Below, piece by piece: positions 277 to 29,450 of a DNA stretch of 59,993 bases. The notes under the pieces were generated by a model. That model did no database searches. It was not told the origin of the DNA and saw only the letters and a program-made list of their open reading frames with translations. Location: assembly GCA_964620395.1 (NCBI GenBank), contig CAZUHE010000001.1:1-59993 (forward strand), in the 5' to 3' direction. Every line of letters begins with the position of its first letter. The stretch's first letter is position 1. The position numbers and the translations under genes were made by a program. Source of the DNA: an uncultured Dehalococcoidia bacterium (GTDB lineage: Bacteria > Chloroflexota > Dehalococcoidia > Lucifugimonadales > UBA826).

Positions 277-1368
277 TCACCTGAGAATACCTGGATATAT
301 AAATTCTGCGAGTTCTTCTACTCCTTCTATAAATCTTGGTCCTGAAACGCTTAATAGATCCTCACTAGGGGTATATATAGCATTGTTTTTCACGGCTAGT
401 ATGTCCTTAAAAGCGATATCATTTGTGAAAGAATCTCCATACGAGGCGATAATATATTGTGGGTTTCTTTCGACCAAAATCTCTGGTGACACTTGTGCAT
501 ATCCTTCAATGTCCCCAGATATATTTTTTAACTTCAGAAGTTGAAATACGTTTCCTACGAGAGTGTTATCACCTGGAGCCCAAAGTCCACCTACGTCTTG
601 AAATACTGATGGCCCTTCATTGTATGGTGCTAGGTGATATTCTATTTTCTGTATCCGTGACTCAAAGTCTCTTGCCAAATCCTCTGCTTCATTCACAGCA
701 CCAGTAATAGTTCCCCACATTCGGAAATGCTGAGACATTTGTCTGAAATCATCGTCAATGGTAGGTATAAGCAGGACATTTAATCCAGCTTCTTCCAATT
801 GGTCTTTGAAAGATGGGTAGAAAAGATAAACTAAGTCTGGTTCCAGACCTACTACGGTTTCAACATCCATATTAAACGCATCTCCTACTCTCGGAATGCT
901 CGCGGCTTCTCTTGGGTAAGTTACAAAATCATGAGTTGCCACAATTCTGGATCCTTCTCCAATCGCAAAAAGTATCTCAACCGCAGCCGAATCAAAGGCC
1001 ACGATTCTTTCGGGAGCCTTTTCAAAGACAATTTTCTTGCCGTCTCTATCTAGAACCGATACAGGAAATGTAGCAGTCAGAATTTCCCTATTCGGTGTGG
1101 TGATAATTTCTCTTTTCTGATTTGTGTTTGGGCTAGAAAGTTTGGACAAGTTGTCAGGTTTTTCTACTATTGATTTAACTGATGGTAGTGACGGTAATGG
1201 TTTTTCAGGATCCAAAGGCTTACTGGGTGTGTAAGTTATCTTGTCAGGAGGTTGGGGTGAATCTGCTGGTAAGGGCTGTTCGGGCTCCGGAACACTACAG
1301 CCGATTATCGATATACACAATAATATTGCAATACTAATAACAAAGAAATTTGTGGGCTTCAACGCCAT
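277..1368 (-). CDS. ABC transporter substrate-binding lipoprotein, Fe-siderophore/cobalamin (BtuF-like) type
   Basis: 363 aa. It has a lipoprotein signal with lipobox Cys (ILLCISIIGCS) and a Pro-rich linker. A Fe/B12-type periplasmic-binding-domain layout follows (ERIVAFDSAAVEILFAIG, PDLVYLF, PEILVERNPQYII). It lies directly downstream of a cobalamin riboswitch. Confidence 0.8.
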   Translation of the reverse strand: MALKPTNFFVISIAILLCISIIGCSVPEPEQPLPADSPQPPDKITYTPSKPLDPEKPLPSLPSVKSIVEKPDNLSKLSSPNTNQKREIITTPNREILTATFPVSVLDRDGKKIVFEKAPERIVAFDSAAVEILFAIGEGSRIVATHDFVTYPREAASIPRVGDAFNMDVETVVGLEPDLVYLFYPSFKDQLEEAGLNVLLIPTIDDDFRQMSQHFRMWGTITGAVNEAEDLARDFESRIQKIEYHLAPYNEGPSVFQDVGGLWAPGDNTLVGNVFQLLKLKNISGDIEGYAQVSPEILVERNPQYIIASYGDSFTNDIAFKDILAVKNNAIYTPSEDLLSVSGPRFIEGVEELAEFIYPGILR

Positions 1369-1384
1369 CTCCTAATTTATGTTG

Positions 1385-1605
1385 CCATCATGGTCAGGCG
1401 TAGGGTAAAAAAATACCCTGATCCGCCAGCGTTTAATTGTGGTGGATACAGGGTTACTTTAGAATCCGCATCCTATACCTTTCCGCGAAGGCTTAGATGT
1501 TGGTGATTGGTGGTGGACCGGACTCGTTTCTTAGAAACCTACCGTTGCGGGACAGTGTCGGATTTTGACCGACTTCCCCCTTTAAACCTACAAGGTACCA
1601 GATCA
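1385..1605 (-). promoter_or_regulatory. cobalamin (B12) riboswitch in the 5' leader of the BtuF-like gene
   Basis: The minus strand reads TGGTACCTTGTAGGTTTAAAGGGGGAAGTCGGTCAAAATCCGACACTGTCCCGCAACGGTAGG (about 1600 to 1538). This matches the conserved core as in the E. coli btuB leader (AGGGAA-N-GGTG..AATC-...CTG.C.CGCA.CGGTA.GG). A B12-box-like GAGTCCGGTCCACCACC follows at about 1525-1509. A GGCG..AGGGTA-T7-TACCCT.CGCC hairpin (about 1427-1393) lies before the SD AGGAG. The aptamer core is clear; the outer boundaries are approximate. Confidence 0.8.
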
Positions 1606-1678
1606 CGCATTATTTAGTTTTTCGAGTTATCAATTATGGTACACAGCGGATTGATTTGCAACGTGAGGAAACGAGGTT

Positions 1679-7381: not shown

Positions 7382-8644
7382 CTAAATGGAATTGTTTCTA
7401 TTAATTTTTTCCCCGTCTTTAAATACGGTTACTATTCGCCTTAAATCTTCGATGTTTTTACCAGGGTTCCCGTCTACGATTACCAAATCCGCTTTTTTAC
7501 CAGGTTCTATTGATCCCACCTTATCGTCGTAATTACAAGATCTTGCGGAGTTTAAAGTGGCGGATACAATCGCATCTTCAGGTGGCATTCCTGATAGCAC
7601 AGTTGACTCTATTTCTCCTTGAAAATCACCCATTTTGTAGTGCCCCCAGGCGGAATCTGATCCACATACCAGGGTGACACCGCTTTCTCTCATCCGATTA
7701 ACATGTTCCATCCTTACTTGTCGCTCTTCCCGTATCGTCTTTAATTGGTTTTGTTCGAAAGAATTTAGTCCATGTTTATCCATTTTGGTTTGTAGCCTTT
7801 GGCCTTCTACCCTTGCAATATTTAACGTTGGGTTCACGTAAATACCATGTTCAATTATTTGTTCCGTTATTTCTGGTCTGTATAAGTTAGTTCCGTCAGG
7901 TTCCTTATGAACACCATGGACGATAGTGTCTATCCCTGACTGGATTGCATTCAGCATACCTTCTGAAGACGTACAGTGAGCGACAGTATGTTTTCCAAAT
8001 TTGTGTGCTTCATCACAAATAGTTGTAAGTTCATCCACCGTGAAGGATGGGCGCATTGGAAAAGAAGTCTTAGTACTCCCTCCGGTAGCCGTGATCTTTA
8101 TAAAATCAGCCCCTTCTTTAACAAGCTGTCTAACGGCTGCTCGACATTCCGCTTCTCCAGTTGCTTGAGTTCCAAAGTATCCTAAATGGCCTCCTATTAT
8201 CGCGATTGGGCGGCCGGCTAAAATCAGTCTTGGGGCCTCTACGATACCCATTTCCACCGACTGTCGTAATAGGAAAGTGGTGTTGTGTTTGCCTCCACAA
8301 TCCCTAACGGTGGTAACCCCGGAATCAAGGTGTTTTTTCGCATTGACAGCAGCTTGAACGGTGAGTATCTCGTCCGGTAACAATGCAAGTTCATCCCCTG
8401 ATCTACCGTCTCCTATTCCATTCAAGTGAACATGGCAATCTACCAGCCCAGGTAGTACTGTGCGATTGCCATAATCTGTTTCTTCAACAAATGCGTCACT
8501 TGGCTTTGAGAGTGATCCTTGTGGCCCGACCTCGGCGATTTCTCCATCTTTAATTAATATTTCGGCCTTTGGCATGATGGCTTTTCCAGTGCCATCAATC
8601 ATGCGATCGATTTTTATTATTCTAAATGTAGTTGTTTTTTCCAT
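7382..8644 (-). CDS. amidohydrolase family protein (imidazolonepropionase / Xaa-Pro dipeptidase-like)
   Basis: The track ORF runs to 8818. The conserved domain starts at MEKTTTFRIIKIDRMIDGTG, whose ATG at 8644 is preceded by AGGAAA 7 nt upstream. It carries the metal motif GLVDCHVHLNG and later HCTS / VHGVH / GSDS contexts. Confidence 0.75.
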   Translation of the reverse strand: MEKTTTFRIIKIDRMIDGTGKAIMPKAEILIKDGEIAEVGPQGSLSKPSDAFVEETDYGNRTVLPGLVDCHVHLNGIGDGRSGDELALLPDEILTVQAAVNAKKHLDSGVTTVRDCGGKHNTTFLLRQSVEMGIVEAPRLILAGRPIAIIGGHLGYFGTQATGEAECRAAVRQLVKEGADFIKITATGGSTKTSFPMRPSFTVDELTTICDEAHKFGKHTVAHCTSSEGMLNAIQSGIDTIVHGVHKEPDGTNLYRPEITEQIIEHGIYVNPTLNIARVEGQRLQTKMDKHGLNSFEQNQLKTIREERQVRMEHVNRMRESGVTLVCGSDSAWGHYKMGDFQGEIESTVLSGMPPEDAIVSATLNSARSCNYDDKVGSIEPGKKADLVIVDGNPGKNIEDLRRIVTVFKDGEKINRNNSI

Positions 8645-8673
8645 TATTAATATTTCCTGATTACAGACCAGCC

Positions 8674-8696
8674 GGGTGCATACACACCCTTTTTTT
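8674..8696 (+). terminator. terminator-like hairpin (GGGTG-CATACA-CACCC followed by T7), orphan on the + strand
   Basis: Read directly: stem 8674-8678 / 8685-8689, T-run 8690-8696. It lies in the divergent intergenic region between the amidohydrolase (minus) and the alcohol dehydrogenase (plus). No + strand gene ends immediately upstream. Confidence 0.35.
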
Positions 8697-8890
8697 GATG
8701 GCCTAATCCCTTGCCCAATGTGTAAATGTCTTATTGGTGCGATATCATCACAGAGACTACTCTTTTGGTCAATTGGATGAACTTTTTTAAGACTGACTTG
8801 ACATTCATGGCTGGTCATTCAATATTGTTTTTAAATTATGAGATTTTGTATTTTCGCAACAACAATTATTATGATCTTAGGAGGAGTCCT

Positions 8891-9916
8891 ATGAAGGCGG
8901 CAGTATATAAAGGTGAAGGAAAATTTAAAGTGGAAGACGTTCCACTTCCCGAGCTTACCCCTGATCAAGTTTTGGTCAAGGTCAAATATTGTGCTATTTG
9001 TGGTACTGATGTTCATACTGTTCTTTATGACGTTCTTGAGCCTGATTCAGTAATGGGGCATGAATATTGTGGGACGATAGCAGATATCGGCAAGGAAGTT
9101 ACAAAATGGAAGATAGGTGACAGGGTTGTTGGGGGAGGTGGGGATTCGCCTCCTGGAGTTTCTTATGGGATTATGGGGGACCCTCGATTTAGTTATCAAC
9201 AGAGTCTTGCTCAAGACCAGACAAGTGGTGCTTATGCAGAATACGTTTGTTTGCAGGAGTGGGAGCCGATGTCGATACCAGATGAAGTATCGGATCGTGC
9301 TGCTGCTATGTGTGAACCCTGTGCGATAGCGGTACATGCTGTTAGGAATTCAAGGATGCAGGTAGGAGACTCAGTTGCAATACTCGGAGCTGGGCCTGTC
9401 GGACTTTTGTGTTTGCAGGTTGCCAAGGCGGCTGGTGCAGGATCTGTCTACGTTTCTGAGCCAGCACCGGCGAGAAGAAGAACAGCGTTGGAATTGGGTG
9501 CAGATGAAGTTATAGATCCCTCTACAGAAGACGCTGTTGATAGAATGATTTCGTTAACCGGAGGACTGGGACCTCACATTGTCTTTGAATGTGCTGCTGC
9601 TAAGAATACTTTGGATCAAGGCTTGACTATGGCGAGGCGTTTCGGGCAAGTTGTTTTGGTTGCCATCGCTTGGAAGCCAACTTCGGTGTTGCCTGTAGAA
9701 TGGCTTGGGCGAGAAGTAGAAATGAAGGCTTCTGCTAGTAAGACGCCGGAAGACTGGGCAAGAGCTCTTGAATTAATAAGGACAGGCAAAGTTCGGATGG
9801 AGCCTCTGCTTTCTGATACTAGTTTTGTTCCACTTAGCAACATCCAACAATCATTTGAAAGCCTTTTTGAACCAAAAGGGGAAGTGAAAATTGTGGTTGA
9901 ACCATGGGCGACATAG
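8891..9916 (+). CDS. zinc-dependent alcohol dehydrogenase (MDR family, sorbitol/threonine dehydrogenase-like)
   Basis: The start was moved to MKAAVYKG (ATG 8891), which has SD AGGAGG 7 nt upstream. Motifs seen are CAICGTDVH, GHEYCGTIADIG and the Rossmann GAGPVGL. Confidence 0.85.
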   Translation: MKAAVYKGEGKFKVEDVPLPELTPDQVLVKVKYCAICGTDVHTVLYDVLEPDSVMGHEYCGTIADIGKEVTKWKIGDRVVGGGGDSPPGVSYGIMGDPRFSYQQSLAQDQTSGAYAEYVCLQEWEPMSIPDEVSDRAAAMCEPCAIAVHAVRNSRMQVGDSVAILGAGPVGLLCLQVAKAAGAGSVYVSEPAPARRRTALELGADEVIDPSTEDAVDRMISLTGGLGPHIVFECAAAKNTLDQGLTMARRFGQVVLVAIAWKPTSVLPVEWLGREVEMKASASKTPEDWARALELIRTGKVRMEPLLSDTSFVPLSNIQQSFESLFEPKGEVKIVVEPWAT

Positions 9917-10096: not shown

Positions 10097-10990
10097 TTGT
10101 CATTGTGTTTGATTTTAGGCGAATGGTTGCTTAGATCCTATGGTCTTGGGGACCCAATTATCTATTATCAGGATGCTGCATATGGGTATGCCCTGGAACC
10201 TTCCCAGAAATCGGTAAGGTTGAGAAATTCCGTTATTACTATCAATGAGAGTGGGTTACGTTCTCAGGATAACTGGGATTTGGCAAAAGGCAAAAGGATT
10301 TTGTTTATGGGGGATAGTGTTACCTATGGAGGGTCCTATGTAGACGATTCTGAGATTTTTTCAACTTTGGTTTGTGGGTATATACCGGATAGTACATGCG
10401 GAAATGCCGGAGTTAATGGGTACGGGGTACTTAACATGGTATTGAGGTCACGCGTGGATCATAGGCTCGATAAAGCCGATATCGTCATTTTCACCGTTGT
10501 TCCCGGTGATTTCACCAGAGGGCTCACTACCATAAGTCATGTTCCTTATTACGTGGGCAAGCCCTCTGGATGGGTCCATACTAAACTTCCAGCTTTCATG
10601 GAACTACTTAATCATGTGGGATATTCATACAGCCTCGGCGGTGCCATTTCCAAATCCAAGAATAATTTTTCTAAGGACACTCAAGATCATTCCATTGAAG
10701 CCACACGATTTGCTCTTGATCAACTATTTGAAGAGATAGGTCGTCTGGAGTCTAATGATAAGGATGTGTTTGTATTTCTGAGTCCAGATAAAGAAGACAT
10801 AAGCTTTGAAAATAAAGTATCAGCGATGATACATTTGGAGTTGCAACGGCGATTAGGCTCTCGTTATTTGCCTGGAACATTTATGGATGAAGATAGATTC
10901 TATTACGATAATGTTCACTATGAAGTAGATGGACATCAACAGGCGGCTGCGAAGATATCTGAATTCATAATAGAGATGTTGTTGGAATGA
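10097..10990 (+). CDS. SGNH/GDSL-like hydrolase family protein with N-terminal hydrophobic segment
   Basis: 297 aa with a TTG start in the track. Block I-like FMGDSVTYGG and C-terminal DNVHYEVDGH (the DxxH catalytic pair context) fit the SGNH fold. Confidence 0.5.
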   Translation: MSLCLILGEWLLRSYGLGDPIIYYQDAAYGYALEPSQKSVRLRNSVITINESGLRSQDNWDLAKGKRILFMGDSVTYGGSYVDDSEIFSTLVCGYIPDSTCGNAGVNGYGVLNMVLRSRVDHRLDKADIVIFTVVPGDFTRGLTTISHVPYYVGKPSGWVHTKLPAFMELLNHVGYSYSLGGAISKSKNNFSKDTQDHSIEATRFALDQLFEEIGRLESNDKDVFVFLSPDKEDISFENKVSAMIHLELQRRLGSRYLPGTFMDEDRFYYDNVHYEVDGHQQAAAKISEFIIEMLLE

Positions 10991-16540: not shown

Positions 16541-16780
16541 TTATAAATTGAGCTTGGCAGCTAGTTCTTCGTCTGTAGGCTCTACCAAAATACTGCCGTC
16601 CGGAAACACGATTGTTGGAACTCTTTCCATTCCTTTGTTTAGACTGCGTATATATGTGCGATACTGGGACTCTGTGTCCACATCAGTCCACTCATAGTCG
16701 ATTTTGTTCTTGTCCATAAAGGTCTTTGAGCGGACGCAATCCCCGCACCATTCAGTGCCATATACTCTGATTTTATTCAT
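16541..16780 (-). CDS. glutaredoxin/NrdH-like small redoxin
   Basis: 79 aa from MNKIRVYGTEWCGDCVRSK (CxxC motif), with a VPTIVFPDG cis-Pro context. AAGGG SD lies 9 nt upstream of ATG 16780. The longer track ORF to 16849 would overlap the upstream gene. Confidence 0.75.
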   Translation of the reverse strand: MNKIRVYGTEWCGDCVRSKTFMDKNKIDYEWTDVDTESQYRTYIRSLNKGMERVPTIVFPDGSILVEPTDEELAAKLNL

Positions 16781-16811
16781 ATGTATGTACCCTTTTTCTA
16801 TTGTTAAATAA

Positions 16812-17204
16812 TCAAGTCGACACAGATGGAAGTTTTCCCATATCACCAAGTACTTTTTTTACCGTTTTCATGGCTGAAAGCGATGCTGGTACTCCAGCAT
16901 AGACTGAACTATGGATTAGTAGAGCTAGGAGCTCTTCTGGGGAAACCCCATTCTGTATTGCTCCCTTAGTGTGAAGGGCTATTTCAGCATCAGATTTAAG
17001 TGCAATAAGTACCGACAAGGTTATGATGCTTTTGGTTTTACGGTCCAATGGGCCTCTACTCCAGACTCCCCCCCATGCCGATTCAGTGATAAATTCCTGA
17101 AAAGGCTTATCGAAAGGAGTGGCGTTTTCAAACGATTCGTTTACATAAGTTTCTCCGAGGACTTCCTTTCTGATTCTGAGCCCTTCTTCAAATTTTTTGG
17201 ACAA
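16812..17204 (-). CDS. carboxymuconolactone decarboxylase (CMD/PcaC-like) family protein
   Basis: 130 aa. The typical CMD layout is present (FITESAWGGVWSRGPLDRKTKSIITLSVLIAL...ELLALLIHSSVYAGVPA). The TTG start has AAGGAA SD. Confidence 0.8.
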   Translation of the reverse strand: MSKKFEEGLRIRKEVLGETYVNESFENATPFDKPFQEFITESAWGGVWSRGPLDRKTKSIITLSVLIALKSDAEIALHTKGAIQNGVSPEELLALLIHSSVYAGVPASLSAMKTVKKVLGDMGKLPSVST

Positions 17205-25475: not shown

Positions 25476-26399
25476 TCAAACACGCACAAATTTTTGAAGT
25501 CGTGCCCCATCCAAAGTTTCTCCAACATATAGACTCCCATCTGAGTCTATACCCACAGCATGGGCGGCCAAAAAGTCTCCATCAATCCCGGTACTGGCTC
25601 CCCATCCTCCAAGCCATTGACCGGTTTTAGTCATGATTTTGACTCCTGAGTTATGAGAAACCTCATTTACTTCAGGTGCTCCATCCATTAATCCTATTTT
25701 GTACCCCAGTTCGGCTACCACCATGGTACCGTCACTGCTAGGAACTATCTGATTTGGTCTATGCACACCCCTCCATTGTGATACGTACTGCCCGTCTGAA
25801 GTGAATATTTGTATTCGGCTATTTTCCCGGTCGCATACATATACCAATCCTGTTGGGTCAACTGCAACACTATGTGGGACCATGAATTGGCCTGGGCCAG
25901 TACCCCTTTCTCCCCATGATCTGATGAGTTTTCCTTCTGGAGTAAAGTGATGGATTTTTGAGTTACCATACCCGTCGGAGACATACAGTGATCCATCAAG
26001 TCCGAAGGCGATATCGGTAGGTCGATTGAAAGGTTCTCCACTTTGTTCGGGGGCCGGGTTATCTGGGCTACCTAGGGTTAAAAGAAGATTTCCATCCGAA
26101 GTCCATTTCCTTACTGTGTGGTTACCGACATCAGTTGTCCATACAGAATCATCAGGTCCTATCTCTACATGATGTGCGGAAGAGAAATTTTCAAGAGCCC
26201 ATGAATCAATTATGTCACCATCTTTATTTAAAACGATCATGGGATGGTTACTTCTGTTGTATGCGAATATATTGTCTCTGCTATCTACTGCCACGCCAAC
26301 GACATGATTCCATTCCCATCCATCTGGCAGAGGAGCCCAACCTGGTACATTCTCATAAACGTATTCCCCGTAGCTTACTCTCAGTGGCTTGTTGGACAT
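25476..26399 (-). CDS. NHL-repeat six-bladed beta-propeller protein (peptidyl-alpha-hydroxyglycine alpha-amidating lyase-like)
   Basis: 307 aa. Repeated NHL blades are visible (HVVGVAVDSRDN, FNRPTDIAFGLDGSLYVSDGYGN, VPHSVAVDPTGLVYVCDRENSRIQIF, AAHAVGIDSDGSLYVGE). SD GGAGA. It is a paralog of 56705-57658. Confidence 0.7.
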   Translation of the reverse strand: MSNKPLRVSYGEYVYENVPGWAPLPDGWEWNHVVGVAVDSRDNIFAYNRSNHPMIVLNKDGDIIDSWALENFSSAHHVEIGPDDSVWTTDVGNHTVRKWTSDGNLLLTLGSPDNPAPEQSGEPFNRPTDIAFGLDGSLYVSDGYGNSKIHHFTPEGKLIRSWGERGTGPGQFMVPHSVAVDPTGLVYVCDRENSRIQIFTSDGQYVSQWRGVHRPNQIVPSSDGTMVVAELGYKIGLMDGAPEVNEVSHNSGVKIMTKTGQWLGGWGASTGIDGDFLAAHAVGIDSDGSLYVGETLDGARLQKFVRV

Positions 26400-26513
26400 G
26401 ACTACTATTTCTCCTTTCGCGATTGTGCATGCGGGTTTTAGAGCATTGTAACAAGACGGGGTACCTATTAGTTGTTTGGTGTATTCGTTGACATTGTTCT
26501 GTCAGTGAGGCTA

Positions 26514-26565
26514 GACTCTTGTTGCGTTCGGGACCTCTTGAGCGCAACAAGTAAGAGTCGTTTTT
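26514..26565 (+). promoter_or_regulatory. strong leader hairpin followed by T5, abutting the SD of the Cys-rich protein gene
   Basis: Read directly: CTTGTTGCG (26518-26526) pairs with CGCAACAAG (26543-26551). The stem is extended by 2-3 inner pairs and by an outer GACT/AGTC stem across a 4-nt bulge. TTTTT follows at 26561-26565 and the SD AAGGAG at 26566-26571. The role (attenuator, operator or stabiliser) is unresolved. Confidence 0.35.
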
Positions 26566-26579
26566 AAGGAGTAGGAAAG

Positions 26580-26774
26580 ATGTCCAAATACAGTTGTGGT
26601 GACTGCGGTATGAAAGTTCATAATCTGACTTGCGGTAGTTGTGGGAATGAATTAAACCACGCAACCATTGAAAAAGATGATGGCACTTCCGTTGGAGTTG
26701 CCCAGTGCCCGAAAGGTTGCGGTAAGATCAAATCCCCAATGTGCTGCGGGCATGATATGGCTGCCGCTAGCTGA
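26580..26774 (+). CDS. small cysteine-rich (8 Cys) putative metal-binding protein
   Basis: 64 aa: MSKYSCGDCGMKVHNLTCGSCGNELNHATIEKDDGTSVGVAQCPKGCGKIKSPMCCGHDMAAAS. It has a CxxC-N8-CxxC zinc-ribbon-like pair, then CPKGC and CC. Strong SD AAGGAG lies 8 nt upstream, and a clean terminator lies downstream. Confidence 0.6.
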   Translation: MSKYSCGDCGMKVHNLTCGSCGNELNHATIEKDDGTSVGVAQCPKGCGKIKSPMCCGHDMAAAS

Positions 26775-26805
26775 GTAAATCCACGTCACAGATATCAAAA
26801 TATTT

Positions 26806-26860: not shown

Positions 26861-27355
26861 ATGTTTGGCATATTTAACCAGTATTCATTTATAACGTTTG
26901 CAATTCTTTTGCTCGCCGCTGTGGGTTTTTTTGCTTGGAAAATATTACCGTGGCGTATGTTTGCAGTTTTAATGGTTGTTTTGCTGATTGCTTTGACGGC
27001 ATTTCAATACTATTCCAGTGCAAAGATCAATTCTTTGGAGACTGCGGAGGAATTGGATGAAGTGTTTATGTCGGGGAACCCCGTGATACTGTACTTGTAT
27101 TCTGACTATTGAGTGTCTTGCCTAGTGATCAAGCCTGCCGTTGACAGGTTGCAAGTGAAATTGACAGGTAGATATAGAGTGATACGTATTAATGTTCATT
27201 CGGAATTTGGTACAAGTTTGGCTAAGAAATATATAACCAGTACTGTGCCAGCATTTTTAGTATTTGATGCTAATGGAAAGGAAATAAAGAGATTTCACAG
27301 GGTGCCTGATTACGAAGTTTTGTTGAATGTTTCAAAAAATATCAATAAAAGCTGA
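26861..27355 (+). CDS. membrane-anchored thioredoxin-fold protein with in-frame TGA (candidate selenocysteine, U-V-S-C redox motif)
   Basis: Track ORFs 26861-27112 and 27113-27355 are in the same frame and separated only by TGA 27110-27112. The joined product has 2 TM helices, then ...GNPVILYLYSDY-[TGA]-VSCLVIKPAVDRL...RINVHSEFGTSLAKKYITSTVPAFLVFDANGKEIKRF. This is a thioredoxin fold in which TGA sits where the first Cys of CxxC belongs. If there is no recoding, these are two fragments. Confidence 0.55.
27117..27155 (+). promoter_or_regulatory. stem-loop 4 nt downstream of the in-frame TGA (candidate bacterial SECIS)
   Basis: The outer stem is CTTGC (27117-27121) / GCAAG (27151-27155). The inner stem is AGCCTG (27132-27137) / CAGGTT (27145-27150, with one G-U pair). 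The 7-nt apical loop CCGTTGA contains GU. It was folded by eye only. Confidence 0.4.
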
Positions 27356-27477: not shown

Positions 27478-28464
27478 ATGACGAGACAAAAAGTTTATGT
27501 GACGCGAAATATTGTTCCTGAGGCAATAGAAAAACTAGGCAAAATATTTGACATAGAGGTTTGGGAAAAACCAACTCCGGCCCCCAAAGATCTTATTATT
27601 CAAAAAGCCCAAGAATTTGATGGAATGATGATTGAATCCAATGACATAATGGATTCGGAAGTATTTGGATCGGCTGACAGGCTTAAGGTTGTTGGTACTA
27701 GGGCTATTGGGTACGATAATATCGACGTTTCGGCTGCGACCGAGAACAATATAGCTGTCGGTAATACACCGGGAATACTTCACGAATCTTGTGCTGACTT
27801 TACCTTTGGATTGATGCTATCCCTTGCTCGTCATATAACGCGATCCAACAGAGTGGTATATGGGGGTGATTGGAAAATATTTGATCAAACCCCATATCTG
27901 GGGACAGATGTTTACGGAAAAACGTTAGGGTTGATCGGGTTGGGTTTAATAGGATCTGCGGTCGCGAAACGTGCGATCGGGTTCGATATGAATGTGATCT
28001 ATTATTCCAGGACGAGAAAGATTGAATATGAAGAGAAATATGGCATTACATGGGTCTCTGATTTAGGAGAACTTCTAGAATCTTCTGACTACGTATCTGT
28101 ACATATTCCCCTTGGTCCTGACACCCAAAATTTTATTGGTAAGGAAGAATTGTCCCGTATGAATGAAAATGCCTTTTTGATTAATACATCAAGGGGCGGT
28201 ACTGTTGACCCTGATGCGTTAGCAGAAGCCTTACAAGCAGGCAAAATAGCAGGTGCTGGTTTGGACGTCACTGTTCCAGAACCAATTGACCCGGATCATC
28301 CGCTTGTGCATATGGATAATGTTATTATCACCCCTCATATCGCTAGTGCCAGTGCGGCTACTTTTACGAGGATGGGATTAATGGCAGCTGATAATGTAAT
28401 AAACTTTTTACAGGGAGAATCAATGCCTGCCTGTCTGAACCCCGAAGTACTACCTAGCGACTGA
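27478..28464 (+). CDS. D-isomer-specific 2-hydroxyacid dehydrogenase (glyoxylate/hydroxypyruvate reductase-like)
   Basis: 328 aa. It has the NAD motif [16 protein letters not shown], a catalytic context INTSRGG...D and ITPHIASAS. Strong SD AAGGAGG. Confidence 0.85.
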
Positions 28465-28472
28465 ATGCCATA

Positions 28473-29450
28473 ATGGGCCTTAGTTCTGTCGCATTTTGTT
28501 TTGTGCTTCTTGCCACTTTATTAAGCTCATGCAGTTATTTTTCGGAAGAAAAGGGTAAGACTGAAGAGCTTCCGTCCGTATTTTTTTCGAATTGGGATCC
28601 TACATCCACTCCTATACCACCGACATCAACTCCGGTACCACCGACACCAACTCCGGTACCACCGACACCAACTCCAGTACCACCGACACCAACTCCACTT
28701 CCTCTGAAAAGTGTGCAGTCTACTAGTATTGACTCTGGTGTTCAAAAAGCACTGCAATCACAAGGGTCTGAATCTCAATTTATATTGGACCAATCAAGCA
28801 TTGCTATGTCAGATTTGAGATCATATCAATTTGTTTTGAGTGGAACTGCTTTGCTGGATGCAGGGGGGTTACCGATGAAGGTCCCGATTACATCGGTTGG
28901 TAAGATTCAAGACGATAAAGCATCATCCAATTTTGAAACTTCTCTTATCGGTATGGTTATACCTGTTCAATCTTTTCAATCCGGAAGGGAAATTTATGTC
29001 AAGGATCCTTTTATGGGTAGGTGGTCCAGGACAAATGGGCCGGCTGCTGGTTTGATTTCTTATGATTTTTGGAGAAGTGTGGGCCGAGAAATTTTTAACC
29101 TACCTTTTTCAAAAGTAGCGGTAAAATCTGAGGGATCTCAACGTAACCATCATGAATTTGAACTAGGTCAAATATCCGATGTTGGTGCATTATTTGCTTT
29201 GTTGGGATTAAGTGGTGCCGAAGACTTTGACATTAAGGATGTCACTGGCAGAATGAAAATTGAAAAAAATTCGTATCATGTTTTGGATATTCAGTGTGGT
29301 TTTGTAATCGAACAAGGGGGCAAGTTTGTATCGGAGATATTGGGTCTGACTGGATTGTCTGGTTTGGGTGAATCAAAAATCGATATTGATGTGGAATTTA
29401 TGGGGTTTGATGAGGATATAGAAATAATTATTCCAGTTGGATTGGAATAA
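28473..29450 (+). CDS. lipoprotein with Pro/Thr-repeat linker, unknown function
   Basis: 325 aa. The signal plus lipobox is [10 protein letters not shown]. The linker [34 protein letters not shown] is followed by a globular domain with no family recognised. Confidence 0.6.
28605..28697 (+). repeat. 21-bp in-frame tandem repeat (about 4 copies) encoding the PPTPTPV linker
   Basis: The unit CCACCGACACCAACTCCGGTA occurs at 28617, 28638, 28659 and 28680 (the last copy partial) with 1-nt variants, plus a degenerate partial copy just upstream. Confidence 0.85.

What the first reader, a model, noticed from the sequence alone, without database searches (positions are those of the whole stretch)
26861..27355. 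In-frame TGA at the catalytic position of a membrane-anchored thioredoxin-fold protein: candidate selenoprotein (UxxC)
ORFs 26861-27112 and 27113-27355 share one reading frame and are separated only by TGA 27110-27112. The joined product reads ...GNPVILYLYSDY-[TGA]-VSC-LVIKPAVDRLQVKL...RINVHSEFGTSLAKKYITSTVPAFLVFDANGKEIKRF... This reproduces the thioredoxin fold order: beta1, redox motif at the start of helix 1, the 'V-N-V-D' strand, then cis-Pro before beta3. The TGA sits exactly where the first Cys of W-C-x-x-C belongs, giving U-V-S-C. A split precisely at the catalytic residue is the classical signature of Sec/Cys families. A two-tier stem-loop (27117-27155, 7-nt loop CCGTTGA containing GU) starts 4 nt after the TGA, about where bacterial SECIS elements lie. 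TGA is an ordinary stop elsewhere in the window (for example 10988-10990 and 28462-28464), so this would be local recoding and not a variant code. The N-terminal 83 aa form two TM helices with K/R in the short connecting loop. That topology predicts the redox domain faces outward. No selA, selB, selC or selD is present in this window.
Basis: partly seen in the sequence, partly recalled or inferred. Interest (0 to 1): 0.8.

Follow-up and report, generated by a model that had tools for sequence, protein, structure and literature searches.

The report
Membrane-anchored selenocysteine thioredoxin gene
The two short ORFs are one gene for a membrane-tethered thioredoxin-like protein whose catalytic residue is selenocysteine, encoded by an in-frame TGA; it is a real but routinely mis-annotated member of a well-known class of marine selenoproteins.

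Summary
ORFs 26861-27112 and 27113-27355 share one frame, split only by TGA 27110-27112, which aligns with the first Cys of thioredoxin WCGPC.

An exhaustive protein search and two DNA-pattern scans recovered a family of ~160-aa proteins (N-terminal NQYSF motif, two TM helices, Trx domain), mostly in Chloroflexota (SAR202, Dehalococcoidia, Anaerolineae).
- 37 distinct sequences, 28-43% identical to the window protein, keep TGA at this codon.
- 60+ relatives carry TGC/TGT there.
- Both halves show dN/dS ~0.20.

A 6-bp hairpin (window 27132-27150, loop CCGUUGA, 25 nt after the UGA) is conserved in Sec forms.
- It covaries at synonymous sites and was predicted independently by RNAalifold.
- It fits the published bacterial SECIS model.
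- It is complete in 27/37 Sec forms but only 3/54 Cys forms.

TGA is an ordinary stop elsewhere in the window. The window holds no Sec machinery and its genome could not be searched. One family-bearing genome (UBA1141) is listed among the most selenoprotein-rich bacteria.

Trx-like UxxC selenoproteins are well known in marine metagenomes, so this is a new, uncurated member of a known kind. Outward topology and function are inferred.

The parts
26861..27355 (+). One gene of 164 codons plus stop, encoding a membrane-anchored thioredoxin-fold selenoprotein (ATG 26861; Sec codon 27110-27112; true stop TGA 27353-27355)
   Evidence: The family alignment spans the TGA. dN/dS is 0.20 on both sides.
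26873..26887 (+). Conserved N-terminal motif F-N-Q-Y-S (family consensus NQYSF), just before TM1; function unknown
   Evidence: N5 and S8 are >=90% conserved in the family alignment of Cys forms. The motif is visible in nearly all Sec forms.
26885..26935 (+). Predicted TM helix 1 (residues 9-25)
   Evidence: Hydropathy scan. The AlphaFold2 model of Cys homolog P0012 has helices at 8-27 and 30-51.
26957..27007 (+). Predicted TM helix 2 (residues 33-49). The short K/R-bearing loop WKILPWR lies between the two helices.
   Evidence: Family averages: loop 1.9 K/R in ~8 residues, against 0.4 in the N-terminal tail.
27110..27112 (+). In-frame UGA read as selenocysteine (residue 84), at the position of the first redox Cys
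   Evidence: Aligned to Cys of WCGPC. TGA in 37 distinct family sequences and TGC/TGT in 4 genome and 62 metagenome relatives.
27110..27121 (+). Redox motif U-V-S-C (TGA GTG TCT TGC). The second Cys is invariant in the family.
   Evidence: C invariant. In the model of the Cys homolog, CxxC sits at the N-terminus of helix alpha1.
27132..27150 (+). Conserved SECIS-like hairpin. 5' arm 27132-27137 (AGCCUG, from the Lys-Pro-x codons); loop 27138-27144 (CCGUUGA, with invariant GU from the Val codon and GA from the Asp codon); 3' arm 27145-27150 (CAGGUU, from the Asp-Arg-Leu codons).
   Evidence: RNAalifold predicts exactly this stem on 37 sequences. 95% of cells are paired, there are 25 compensatory cells in 3 pairs, and 0/500 shuffles reach the observed value. 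Codon bias is and the Cys-form control.
27117..27155 (+). Window-specific lower tier (27117-27121 pairs with 27151-27155) that extends the hairpin to -9.5 kcal/mol; not conserved in the family
   Evidence: fold of 27110-27160. Absent from the consensus structure.
27248..27250 (+). cis-Pro codon (Pro130) of the thioredoxin fold
   Evidence: Invariant column P130. Aligned to the cis-Pro of solved thioredoxins.

Best explanation
Positions 26861-27355 are a single gene for a 164-residue selenoprotein.

Shown by comparison:
- UGA 27110-27112 occupies the catalytic position of a thioredoxin fold. It is conserved as UGA, or replaced by Cys codons, across a family found mostly in Chloroflexota.
- Both flanks are translated in the same frame.
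- A hairpin 19 nt downstream of the UGA is maintained by compensatory and synonymous-site selection specifically in the UGA forms.

Inferred mechanism:
- The hairpin is a bacterial SECIS element. It is built from the codons of the family's most conserved peptide, K-P-x-V-D-[R/G]-L.
- SelB-GTP-Sec-tRNA(Sec) binds its apical GU loop while the ribosome reaches the UGA, and inserts selenocysteine instead of terminating.

Inferred product:
- An N-terminal hairpin of two TM helices, with the K/R-rich connecting loop in the cytoplasm.
- The N-terminal NQYSF motif and the Trx domain face outward.
- The U-x-x-C centre cycles between selenol/thiol and selenenylsulfide, acting as an extracytoplasmic thiol-disulfide oxidoreductase. 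Its substrate and electron donor are unknown.
For: Fold and position: Pfam Thioredoxin above the gathering score. The TGA aligns with the first Cys of WCGPC and the cis-Pro also aligns. An AlphaFold2 model of a Cys homolog (pLDDT 86.6) shows two TM helices plus a Trx fold, with CxxC at the helix N-terminus. Its best PDB matches are thioredoxins and the DsbD gamma domain.

Sec/Cys family: the exhaustive search gave 153 hits in two length classes, ~75-aa fragments starting right after the TGA position and ~160-aa full-length proteins. The full-length ones carry C, or 'W', at the aligned column. The 'W' is an in-frame stop codon in the DNA wherever it was checked, identified as TGA. In species-representative genomes, 36 loci have TGA and 4 have TGC/TGT. 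62 further Cys forms came from metagenomes.

Translation of both halves: dN/dS is 0.20 upstream and 0.20 downstream. The codon after the TGA is a canonical start in only 8/37 sequences.

SECIS: RNAalifold predicts the stem. 95% of cells are paired, with 25 compensatory cells, 0/500 shuffles reaching that, and collapse when the partner is slid. Arg is AGG in 29/29 (18% elsewhere in the same genes) and Gly is GGG in 7/7. Pro CCU goes with AGG and CCC with GGG, GAC/GAU tracks the first base of codon x, and AAG/AAA tracks CUN/UUA. All six pairs form in 27/37 Sec forms against 3/54 Cys forms (p = 9e-12), and against 3/32 Cys forms with the same R/G peptide (p = 1e-7). Stem energy is -6.7 against -1.3 and -3.3 kcal/mol, although the Cys forms are GC-richer.

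Fit to the published bSECIS model (criteria read): 6-bp stem, loop of 3-7 nt, spacing 25-27 nt, N1-G-U-N-N2 in the window and in 23/37 sequences, MFE <= -7.5 in 36/37.

Genetic code: 13/46 long ORFs, and this gene itself, stop at TGA.

Lineage: Chloroflexi have tRNA-Sec and selenoproteins. Dehalococcoidia bacterium UBA1141, the genome of Sec-form locus L025, is listed with 49 selenoprotein genes in a database restricted to species with the Sec pathway.

Sister lineage L140 keeps the TGA and has 27 identical nucleotides across the hairpin, against ~9% divergence over the gene.
Against: - No selA, selB, selD or tRNA-Sec is in the window or in any fetched locus. The rest of this organism's genome could not be searched, so Sec decoding in this organism is inferred.
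- The window hairpin by itself folds no better than shuffled sequence.
- No Rfam family matches.
- 14/37 Sec forms have the loop G at position 3 instead of 1-2, so they do not meet the bSECIS loop rule strictly.
- Cys forms with the same peptide keep 4-5 of the 6 pairs, so part of the stem follows from the peptide.
- The sequences are related. The CCC/GGG change may be one or two events, and shuffle controls overstate significance for related sequences.
- There is no protein-level evidence.
- Topology rests on charge counts only. No conserved redox-partner gene was found nearby.
Confidence: 0.87

Rival explanations
1. Pseudogene: a Cys-thioredoxin gene inactivated by a TGC/TGT-to-TGA nonsense mutation, with only an N-terminal membrane stub made.
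For: A single-base change from TGC/TGT gives TGA. No Sec machinery is in the window. Gene callers treat the locus as two ORFs. One family copy (L026) does look degraded.
Against: The same TGA is kept in 37 distinct sequences down to 28% identity, with intact frames. dN/dS is 0.20 downstream of the stop. A downstream hairpin is maintained by compensatory changes. The gene is 100% identical across population variants that differ by 0.4-1.5% elsewhere.
Confidence: 0.02
2. Two separate genes: a small two-TM protein ending at TGA, and an independently initiated truncated thioredoxin-like protein starting at GTG 27113.
For: GTG follows the TGA in the window, and public gene calls list 83-aa plus 76-80-aa products.
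Against: The codon after the TGA is ATT, GTT, ATC, ATA, GTA or GTC in 29/37 relatives, so there is no conserved start. The A/T-rich sequence immediately upstream shows no obvious Shine-Dalgarno motif (by eye; no ribosome-binding-site scan was run). The C-terminal piece would lack strand beta1 and the nucleophilic residue. Cys homologs are always one continuous protein.
Confidence: 0.03
3. Read-through without selenium: UGA decoded as Trp, Cys or Gly, either by a variant genetic code or by near-cognate or suppressor tRNA, with the hairpin only stimulating read-through.
For: Some pipelines translated these genes with code 4 and obtained full-length 'W' proteins. Downstream structures can stimulate stop-codon read-through in general (established knowledge).
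Against: TGA terminates 13/46 long ORFs and this gene itself, so there is no code change. Trp or Gly at the nucleophilic position of a CxxC centre would be inactive, while relatives use Cys. The loop matches the SelB-binding bSECIS consensus. A family-bearing genome is among the most selenoprotein-rich known.
Confidence: 0.04
4. Relic in this particular organism: the family is a true selenoprotein family, but this lineage has lost Sec decoding and the gene is no longer expressed full length.
For: The genome outside the window could not be inspected. Loss of the Sec trait is frequent in bacterial evolution (PMC1794560, read).
Against: The window copy has a perfect 6/6 stem, the invariant loop bases, and an extra lower stem. 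Sister lineage L140, ~9% diverged, keeps the TGA, the frame and the hairpin. The gene has no polymorphism in the population.
Confidence: 0.04

Closest known systems
Sec-containing thioredoxin (Trx, PF00085, UxxC; e.g. Treponema denticola Trx, listed in PMC13188914 and PMC9312934)
   Same: Thioredoxin fold, Sec at the first position of the CxxC motif, Cys-containing homologs, and a SECIS hairpin inside the coding region just downstream of the UGA.
   Different: This protein has an N-terminal two-TM anchor and a conserved NQYSF motif. Its motif is U-[VIM]-x-C, not U-G-P-C, with Tyr/Phe instead of Trp before it. It scores far below the TIGR01068 thioredoxin cut-off (35.9 vs 96.8 bits). It is probably extracytoplasmic.
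Marine 'Trx-like 1' (COG0526) and 'Trx-like 3' (weak cd02950) UxxC selenoprotein groups of the GOS selenoproteome (PMC2398784)
   Same: Abundant UxxC Trx-like selenoproteins found in ocean metagenomes by the same Sec/Cys-pair logic. JGI names the Cys forms of this family with the COG0526 label 'thiol-disulfide isomerase/thioredoxin'. Trx-like 3, like this family, has more Sec than Cys sequences in the ocean.
   Different: That paper does not mention membrane anchoring or Chloroflexi.
Membrane-tethered periplasmic Trx-fold reductases: DsbD gamma domain, TlpA/ResA/CcmG
   Same: A Trx domain following a TM segment, probably facing outward. The DsbD gamma domain is among the best structural and HMM matches.
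   Different: All NCBIfam scores are far below cut-off (DsbD 29 vs 330 bits; TlpA 19 vs 230 bits). This family has two TM helices instead of one (TlpA/ResA) or eight (DsbD). No cytochrome-maturation or CcdA/DsbD neighbours were found. It uses Sec instead of Cys.
Bacterial SECIS element (bSECIS consensus model; E. coli fdhF/fdnG type)
   Same: A hairpin within the ORF, 16-37 nt from the UGA, with a 4-16 bp upper stem and an apical loop containing G-U closed by an N1-N2 pair (criteria read).
   Different: The stem is short (6 bp) and is built from the family's conserved K-P-x-V-D-[R/G]-L codons. The lower stem is not conserved. In 14/37 members the loop G is at position 3. No SECIS family in Rfam matched.

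Membership tests
Bacterial selenoprotein gene (UGA-Sec recoding) | In-frame UGA aligned with a Cys (usually redox-active) in homologs | tested here: met
   The TGA column is C in 24+ full-length proteins, in 4 genome loci and in 62 metagenome loci. It aligns to the first Cys of WCGPC.
Bacterial selenoprotein gene (UGA-Sec recoding) | UGA and the reading frame on both sides conserved across divergent orthologs | tested here: met
   37 distinct TGA forms at 28-43% identity to the window protein. dN/dS is 0.20 on each side.
Bacterial selenoprotein gene (UGA-Sec recoding) | SECIS element downstream of the UGA: 4-16 bp upper stem, 3-9 nt loop, 16-37 nt spacing, MFE <= -7.5 kcal/mol | tested here: met
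   6-bp stem, 7-nt loop (3 nt if C30-G34 pairs), spacing 25-27 nt. The window fold is -9.5 kcal/mol, and 36/37 sequences are <= -7.5.
Bacterial selenoprotein gene (UGA-Sec recoding) | [quoted passage not shown] | tested here: inconclusive
   Met in the window (C-G-U-U-G) and in 23/37 sequences. In 14/37 the N1-N2 pair is absent and the invariant GU sits at loop positions 3-4.
Bacterial selenoprotein gene (UGA-Sec recoding) | selA, selB, selD and tRNA-Sec present in the same genome | not testable with these tools
   Absent from the 60-kb window and from all fetched loci. Indirect support: UBA1141 (locus L025) has 49 selenoprotein genes in BSepDB.
Bacterial selenoprotein gene (UGA-Sec recoding) | Selenium detected in the full-length protein | not testable with these tools
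   Needs an experiment.
Thioredoxin superfamily domain (Pfam PF00085) | Score above the Pfam gathering threshold; CxxC-type motif at the N-terminus of helix alpha1; cis-Pro before strand beta3 | tested here: met
   31.1 vs 23.5 bits. Alignments. The model of homolog P0012 has CxxC at residues 83-86 at the helix start and the order beta-alpha-beta-alpha-beta-beta-alpha. Foldseek top hits are thioredoxins, TM ~0.75.
Canonical thioredoxin TrxA (NCBIfam TIGR01068 equivalog) | Score above the curated cut-off | tested here: not met
   35.9 vs 96.8 bits for the window protein, and 21-31 bits for four relatives. It has the Trx fold but is not an ordinary TrxA.
DsbD / TlpA-ResA-CcmG periplasmic reductases | Score above the curated cut-off; cytochrome-maturation or DsbD-type gene context | tested here: not met
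   DsbD 29 vs 330 bits and TlpA 19 vs 230 bits. No such neighbours were found in 103 loci.
Curated NCBIfam selenoprotein families (e.g. TsoB NF045694, SaoT, GOS_C NF045500, HUIPC-motif Trx-like) | Score above the curated cut-off of any such model | tested here: not met
   The only hit is TsoB, at 20 vs 805 bits. No other selenoprotein model appears at E <= 0.1.

The most novel reading that the evidence does not exclude
This is a distinct selenoprotein family that has not been curated so far: an outward-facing, two-TM-anchored Sec-thioredoxin found mostly in Chloroflexota, with two Myxococcota MAGs also carrying it. In marine SAR202/Dehalococcoidia the Sec form is the rule and the Cys form the exception. 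Its SECIS stem is written into, and co-evolves with, the codons of the family's most conserved peptide (K-P-x-V-D-[R/G]-L). That would make it a clean natural case of one stretch being selected both as protein and as RNA. Its Cys relatives keep a partial, decaying copy of the stem.
Probability: 0.45. Interest if true: 0.5.

Novelty: new member of a known kind. Interest (0 to 1): 0.4.

Why it matters
It corrects an annotation error that recurs across public data. In every protein source consulted here, the Sec forms appear either as two unnamed fragments or as full-length proteins with a spurious Trp from a code-4 gene call.

It adds a membrane-anchored, probably cell-surface selenoenzyme to SAR202/Dehalococcoidia, abundant deep-ocean bacteria. 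The literature held here records large selenoproteomes in this class only in passing (BSepDB) and does not describe them for SAR202.

The family also gives a well-sampled natural data set (37 Sec and 54 Cys forms) on how a SECIS hairpin constrains codon choice and amino-acid choice (R/G only) inside a coding sequence. That is useful for training selenoprotein and SECIS predictors.

It does not change any concept. UxxC Trx-like selenoproteins are the commonest kind in marine metagenomes.

Tried and rejected
- The word-indexed homolog search with the joined (U to C) protein found only one hit, a chimeric scaffold (L001: Ns plus 118 nt of this gene inside a pdxT gene). It was uninformative.
The C-terminal half was used instead.
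- Contigs encoding the exact 83-aa ORF are all >98% identical to the window, and the gene is invariant in them, so they give no independent support.
- Folding the window hairpin alone gave z-scores of +0.7 to +0.9, which is not significant.
- Rfam at a permissive E-value over 27000-27300 found nothing.
- The search for related loci with two family alignments failed because no stretch was conserved enough. Hand-written degenerate DNA patterns replaced it.
- A scan of the window for other TGA-split ORF pairs found none outside the frames of other genes, so there is no second selenoprotein here. The CMD/AhpD-family ORF 16812-17204 has no redox motif and no TGA.
- ARAGORN on 39 loci found no tRNA-Sec.
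- Neighbourhood clustering over 103 loci gave only clade-specific synteny and no conserved partner.
- NCBIfam has no family above cut-off.
- The BSepDB supplements are not held, so membership of this family in that database could not be checked.
- A look-up of window ORF 7382-8818 found no record.
Full report
**1. Observation**

ORF 26861-27112 (83 aa) and ORF 27113-27355 (80 aa) lie in one frame, separated only by TGA 27110-27112. With the TGA read as Cys, the 164-aa product passes the Pfam Thioredoxin gathering score (31.1 vs 23.5 bits, residues 64-146). phmmer alignments to solved thioredoxins place the TGA on the first Cys of WCGPC ('ylysdyCvsC' against 'yfwapWCgpC') and 'vPa' on the cis-Pro.

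Its upper stem is 27132-27137/27145-27150 with loop CCGUUGA, its lower tier is 27117-27121/27151-27155, and the whole is -9.5 kcal/mol. On its own, however, this region folds no better than shuffled sequence (z = +0.9 and +0.7), and Rfam has no match.

TGA is an ordinary stop in the window.

**2. Population copies carry no independent information**

The exact 83-aa ORF is on record in 111 blocks of marine metagenome assemblies (TARA and others). The contigs fetched are 98.5-99.9% identical to the window, and the gene is 100% identical in all of them. The only hit of the word-indexed search was a chimeric scaffold.

**3. A Sec/Cys family**

An exhaustive HMMER search with the C-terminal half, the only form of the query the tool accepted, gave 153 hits at E <= 1e-3 in two length classes:
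- proteins of about 70-80 aa that match from their first residues;
- proteins of about 155-172 aa that match from residue ~85.

The long ones share one architecture: an N-terminal NQYSF motif, two hydrophobic helices and a Trx domain. At the column aligned with the TGA they carry either C (for example YSDMCVAC, YSNYCAGC) or 'W' (YSDYWVGC). For two 'W' proteins the DNA shows an in-frame stop at that codon, later read as TGA, so the W is an artefact of code-4 gene calling. The short ones begin exactly one residue after the TGA position (MACL..., MGCL...).

A degenerate DNA pattern for S-x-[YF]-[TGH]-[VIM]-x-C-L-x-x-K-P-x-[VIM]-D matches the window once and shuffles never. In species-representative genomes it hit 42 loci:
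- 36 have TGA with intact, family-like sequence on both sides;
- 4 have TGC/TGT;
- 1 is a degraded copy (L026);
- 1 is a chance match (L028).

The hosts are SAR202, other Dehalococcoidia, Anaerolineae and Roseiflexaceae, plus two Myxococcota MAGs. The window protein is only 28-43% identical to these, and the alignments run full length across the TGA.

Among 15 moderately diverged Sec-form pairs, dN/dS is 0.20 upstream and 0.20 downstream of the TGA, so both halves are translated in this frame. The codon after the TGA is a canonical start in only 8/37 sequences, which argues against a separate downstream gene.

**4. The SECIS-like hairpin**

In a gapless alignment of 37 distinct Sec forms, starting at the TGA, RNAalifold predicts a single stem at columns 23-28 paired with 36-41. 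This is exactly the window's upper stem.

The stem is formed by the codons of K-P-x on one side and D-[R/G]-L on the other. The loop holds the invariant GU of the Val codon and the invariant GA of the Asp codon.

Pair counts:
- 95% of cells are paired;
- there are 25 double-sided changes in three pairs (GC19/AU9/GU3; UA29/CG7; GC24/AU9);
- 0/500 shuffles reach the observed pairing or covariation;
- sliding the 3' partner by 1-3 columns drops pairing to 4-53%.

The changes are at synonymous or free positions that the search pattern did not fix:
- Arg is AGG in 29/29 (18% of Arg codons elsewhere in the same genes);
- Gly is GGG in 7/7 (21% elsewhere);
- Pro is CCU with AGG and CCC with GGG, and never CCA or CCG (52% elsewhere);
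- GAC or GAU follows the first base of codon x;
- AAG or AAA follows CUN or UUA.

These compensations occur in several clades. The CCC/GGG switch may be one or two events only.

**5. Negative control**

A TGY version of the pattern on metagenomes returned 83 loci. 62 are family members by HMM, and many carry the identical peptide KPxVDRLE. Results:

| Measure | Sec forms | All Cys forms | Cys forms with R/G at that codon |
|---|---|---|---|
| All six pairs formed | 27/37 | 3/54 (Fisher 9e-12) | 3/32 (Fisher 1e-7) |
| Mean energy of the named stem (kcal/mol) | -6.7 | -1.3 | -3.3 |

The Cys segments are GC-richer (59% vs 47%), and their Arg codons are mixed (CGG 13, CGC 7, CGA 7, AGG 3). The peptide therefore predisposes to 4-5 pairs, but only the UGA forms hold the stem complete. 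This may also mean that the Cys forms retain a decaying SECIS.

**6. Fit to the published bacterial SECIS model**

The criteria come from PMC13188914, Fig. 2:

| Criterion | Result |
|---|---|
| Upper stem 4-16 bp | Met (6 bp) |
| Loop 3-9 nt | Met (7 nt, or 3 nt with the C30-G34 pair) |
| 16-37 nt from UGA to loop | Met (25-27 nt) |
| MFE <= -7.5 kcal/mol | Met in the window (-9.5) and in 36/37 sequences |
| Loop pattern N1-G-[G\|U]-N-N2 | Met in the window (C-G-U-U-G) and in 23/37; in 14/37 the GU is at loop positions 3-4 |

Sister lineage L140, about 9% diverged at the DNA level, keeps the TGA and has 27 identical nucleotides across the hairpin.

**7. Sec machinery**

The window has no tRNA and no selA/selB/selD-like gene. 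Its content is typical of SAR202: enolase-superfamily paralogs, MFS transporters, sulfatases and a luciferase-like monooxygenase. No fetched locus has tRNA-Sec.

Indirect support:
- tRNA-Sec and selenoproteins are documented in Chloroflexi.
- BSepDB covers only species with the Sec pathway. It lists Dehalococcoidia bacterium UBA1141 among the ten most selenoprotein-rich bacteria, with 49 genes. UBA1141 is the genome of Sec-form locus L025.

**8. Structure, topology and function (inferred)**

An AlphaFold2 model of Cys homolog P0012, built with the family alignment, has pLDDT 86.6 and pTM 0.76. It shows helices at 8-27 and 30-51 followed by a Trx fold, with CxxC at the N-terminus of helix alpha1. 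Foldseek's best matches are thioredoxins (TM ~0.75 on the target) and the periplasmic DsbD gamma domain.

Across the family:
- the ~8-residue inter-helix loop carries 1.9 K/R;
- the N-terminal tail carries 0.4 K/R;
- the 15 residues after TM2 are net acidic.

By the positive-inside rule the loop is cytoplasmic, and the N-terminus and Trx domain face outward. I put this at about 70%. No neighbour is conserved across 103 loci, and there is no CcdA/DsbD or cytochrome-maturation gene nearby. The substrate and the reductant are therefore unknown.

In some population variants a peroxiredoxin gene sits directly upstream. It has no obvious export signal, so a functional link is doubtful.

**9. Comparison with what is known**

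Sec-containing thioredoxins and many Trx-like UxxC families are established selenoproteins. 'Trx-like 1' (COG0526) and 'Trx-like 3' are among the most abundant selenoproteins in ocean metagenomes. JGI names the Cys forms of this family with the COG0526 label, and NCBI names them 'thioredoxin family protein [Dehalococcoidia bacterium]'. The Sec forms are unnamed fragments.

No NCBIfam model reaches its cut-off, including the curated selenoprotein families. The best hit is TIGR01068 at 35.9 vs 96.8 bits. The literature searched here does not mention a membrane-anchored Sec-thioredoxin or selenoproteins of SAR202.

So this is a new, uncurated member or subfamily of a well-known kind. It may already be counted under a generic 'Trx' or 'Trx-like' heading in BSepDB or the GOS sets, which I could not check.

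**10. Verdict**

- Confidence that this is a genuine Sec-encoding gene family, and that the window copy is a functional member, is ~0.87.
- Confidence in the outward topology is ~0.7.
- The specific function is unknown beyond thiol/selenol-disulfide exchange.
- Interest is moderate to low for a specialist (0.4). The finding is solid and useful for annotation and for SECIS modelling, but it is conceptually expected.

Noticed in passing
window 26388-26785 (ORF 26580-26774); L002 9174-9924 (ORF 9383-9853); L009: The segment just upstream of the Sec-Trx gene is a variable cassette. The window and most population variants carry a 64-aa Cys-rich ORF (CGDCG...CGSCG...CPKGCG...CCGH, no Pfam hit). Variants L002 and L009 carry an unrelated ~750-nt stretch encoding a 156-aa AhpC/TSA peroxiredoxin instead. 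The flanks are >99% identical.
   Followed up: partly
window 1495-1617 (-), with ORF 277-1368 (-): A cobalamin riboswitch (Rfam RF00174, 45.9 bits) lies upstream of a Peripla_BP_2 (BtuF-like) binding protein, which suggests B12-regulated uptake.
   Followed up: no
L012 289-705; L013 153-626 (proteins P0010, P0125 and other 'W' forms): Public protein sets hold full-length versions of Sec forms with Trp at the Sec position, because the gene caller used genetic code 4 on short contigs. Other copies are stored as two fragments. Both are annotation artefacts that hide the selenoprotein.
   Followed up: yes
L001 1-1246: Chimeric metagenome scaffold: a run of Ns followed by 118 nt identical to window 27229-27346, embedded in an unrelated pdxT (SNO) gene. 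This produces a fused 101-aa 'protein' (P0001).
   Followed up: yes
L019 (Polyangiaceae), L032 (Myxococcales), L051 (labelled Klebsiella): Sec forms of this family occur in two Myxococcota MAGs, which may reflect horizontal transfer. One also occurs in a MAG labelled 'uncultured Klebsiella sp.' whose copy closely resembles that of Chloroflexi MAG L017 (86% nucleotide identity over the downstream half), so the bin is probably mislabelled or contaminated.
   Followed up: no
L026 2269 region (uncultured Anaerolineae): This family copy has the TGA, but its sequence leaves the family pattern after KPVVDGLEREW and its upstream ORF is short. It may be a decayed copy or an assembly error.
   Followed up: no
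L056-L138 (Cys forms), columns 23-41 after the redox codon: Cys-form relatives with the KPxVDRLE peptide still form 4-5 of the 6 SECIS stem pairs (often CCG...CGG). This is either a by-product of the peptide or a decaying relic of a former SECIS, which would imply Sec-to-Cys conversions.
   Followed up: partly
window 16541-16849 (-) and 16812-17204 (-): A glutaredoxin-like protein with a CGDC motif (PF00462) overlaps by 38 nt the 3' end of a carboxymuconolactone-decarboxylase-family ORF. That ORF has no redox motif and no in-frame TGA.
   Followed up: partly
window 28473-29450 (+): A lipoprotein-like ORF with a signal-peptide/lipobox-like N-terminus and tandem PTPTPVPP repeats. It has no Pfam hit, and its length varies between population variants (318-325 aa).
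   Followed up: no
whole window: The gene content is typical of SAR202-type Chloroflexota: at least five enolase-superfamily (MR_MLE) paralogs, many MFS transporters, two sulfatases, a luciferase-like monooxygenase, amidohydrolases and two NHL-repeat proteins. About a third of the long ORFs start with TTG or GTG.
   Followed up: partly
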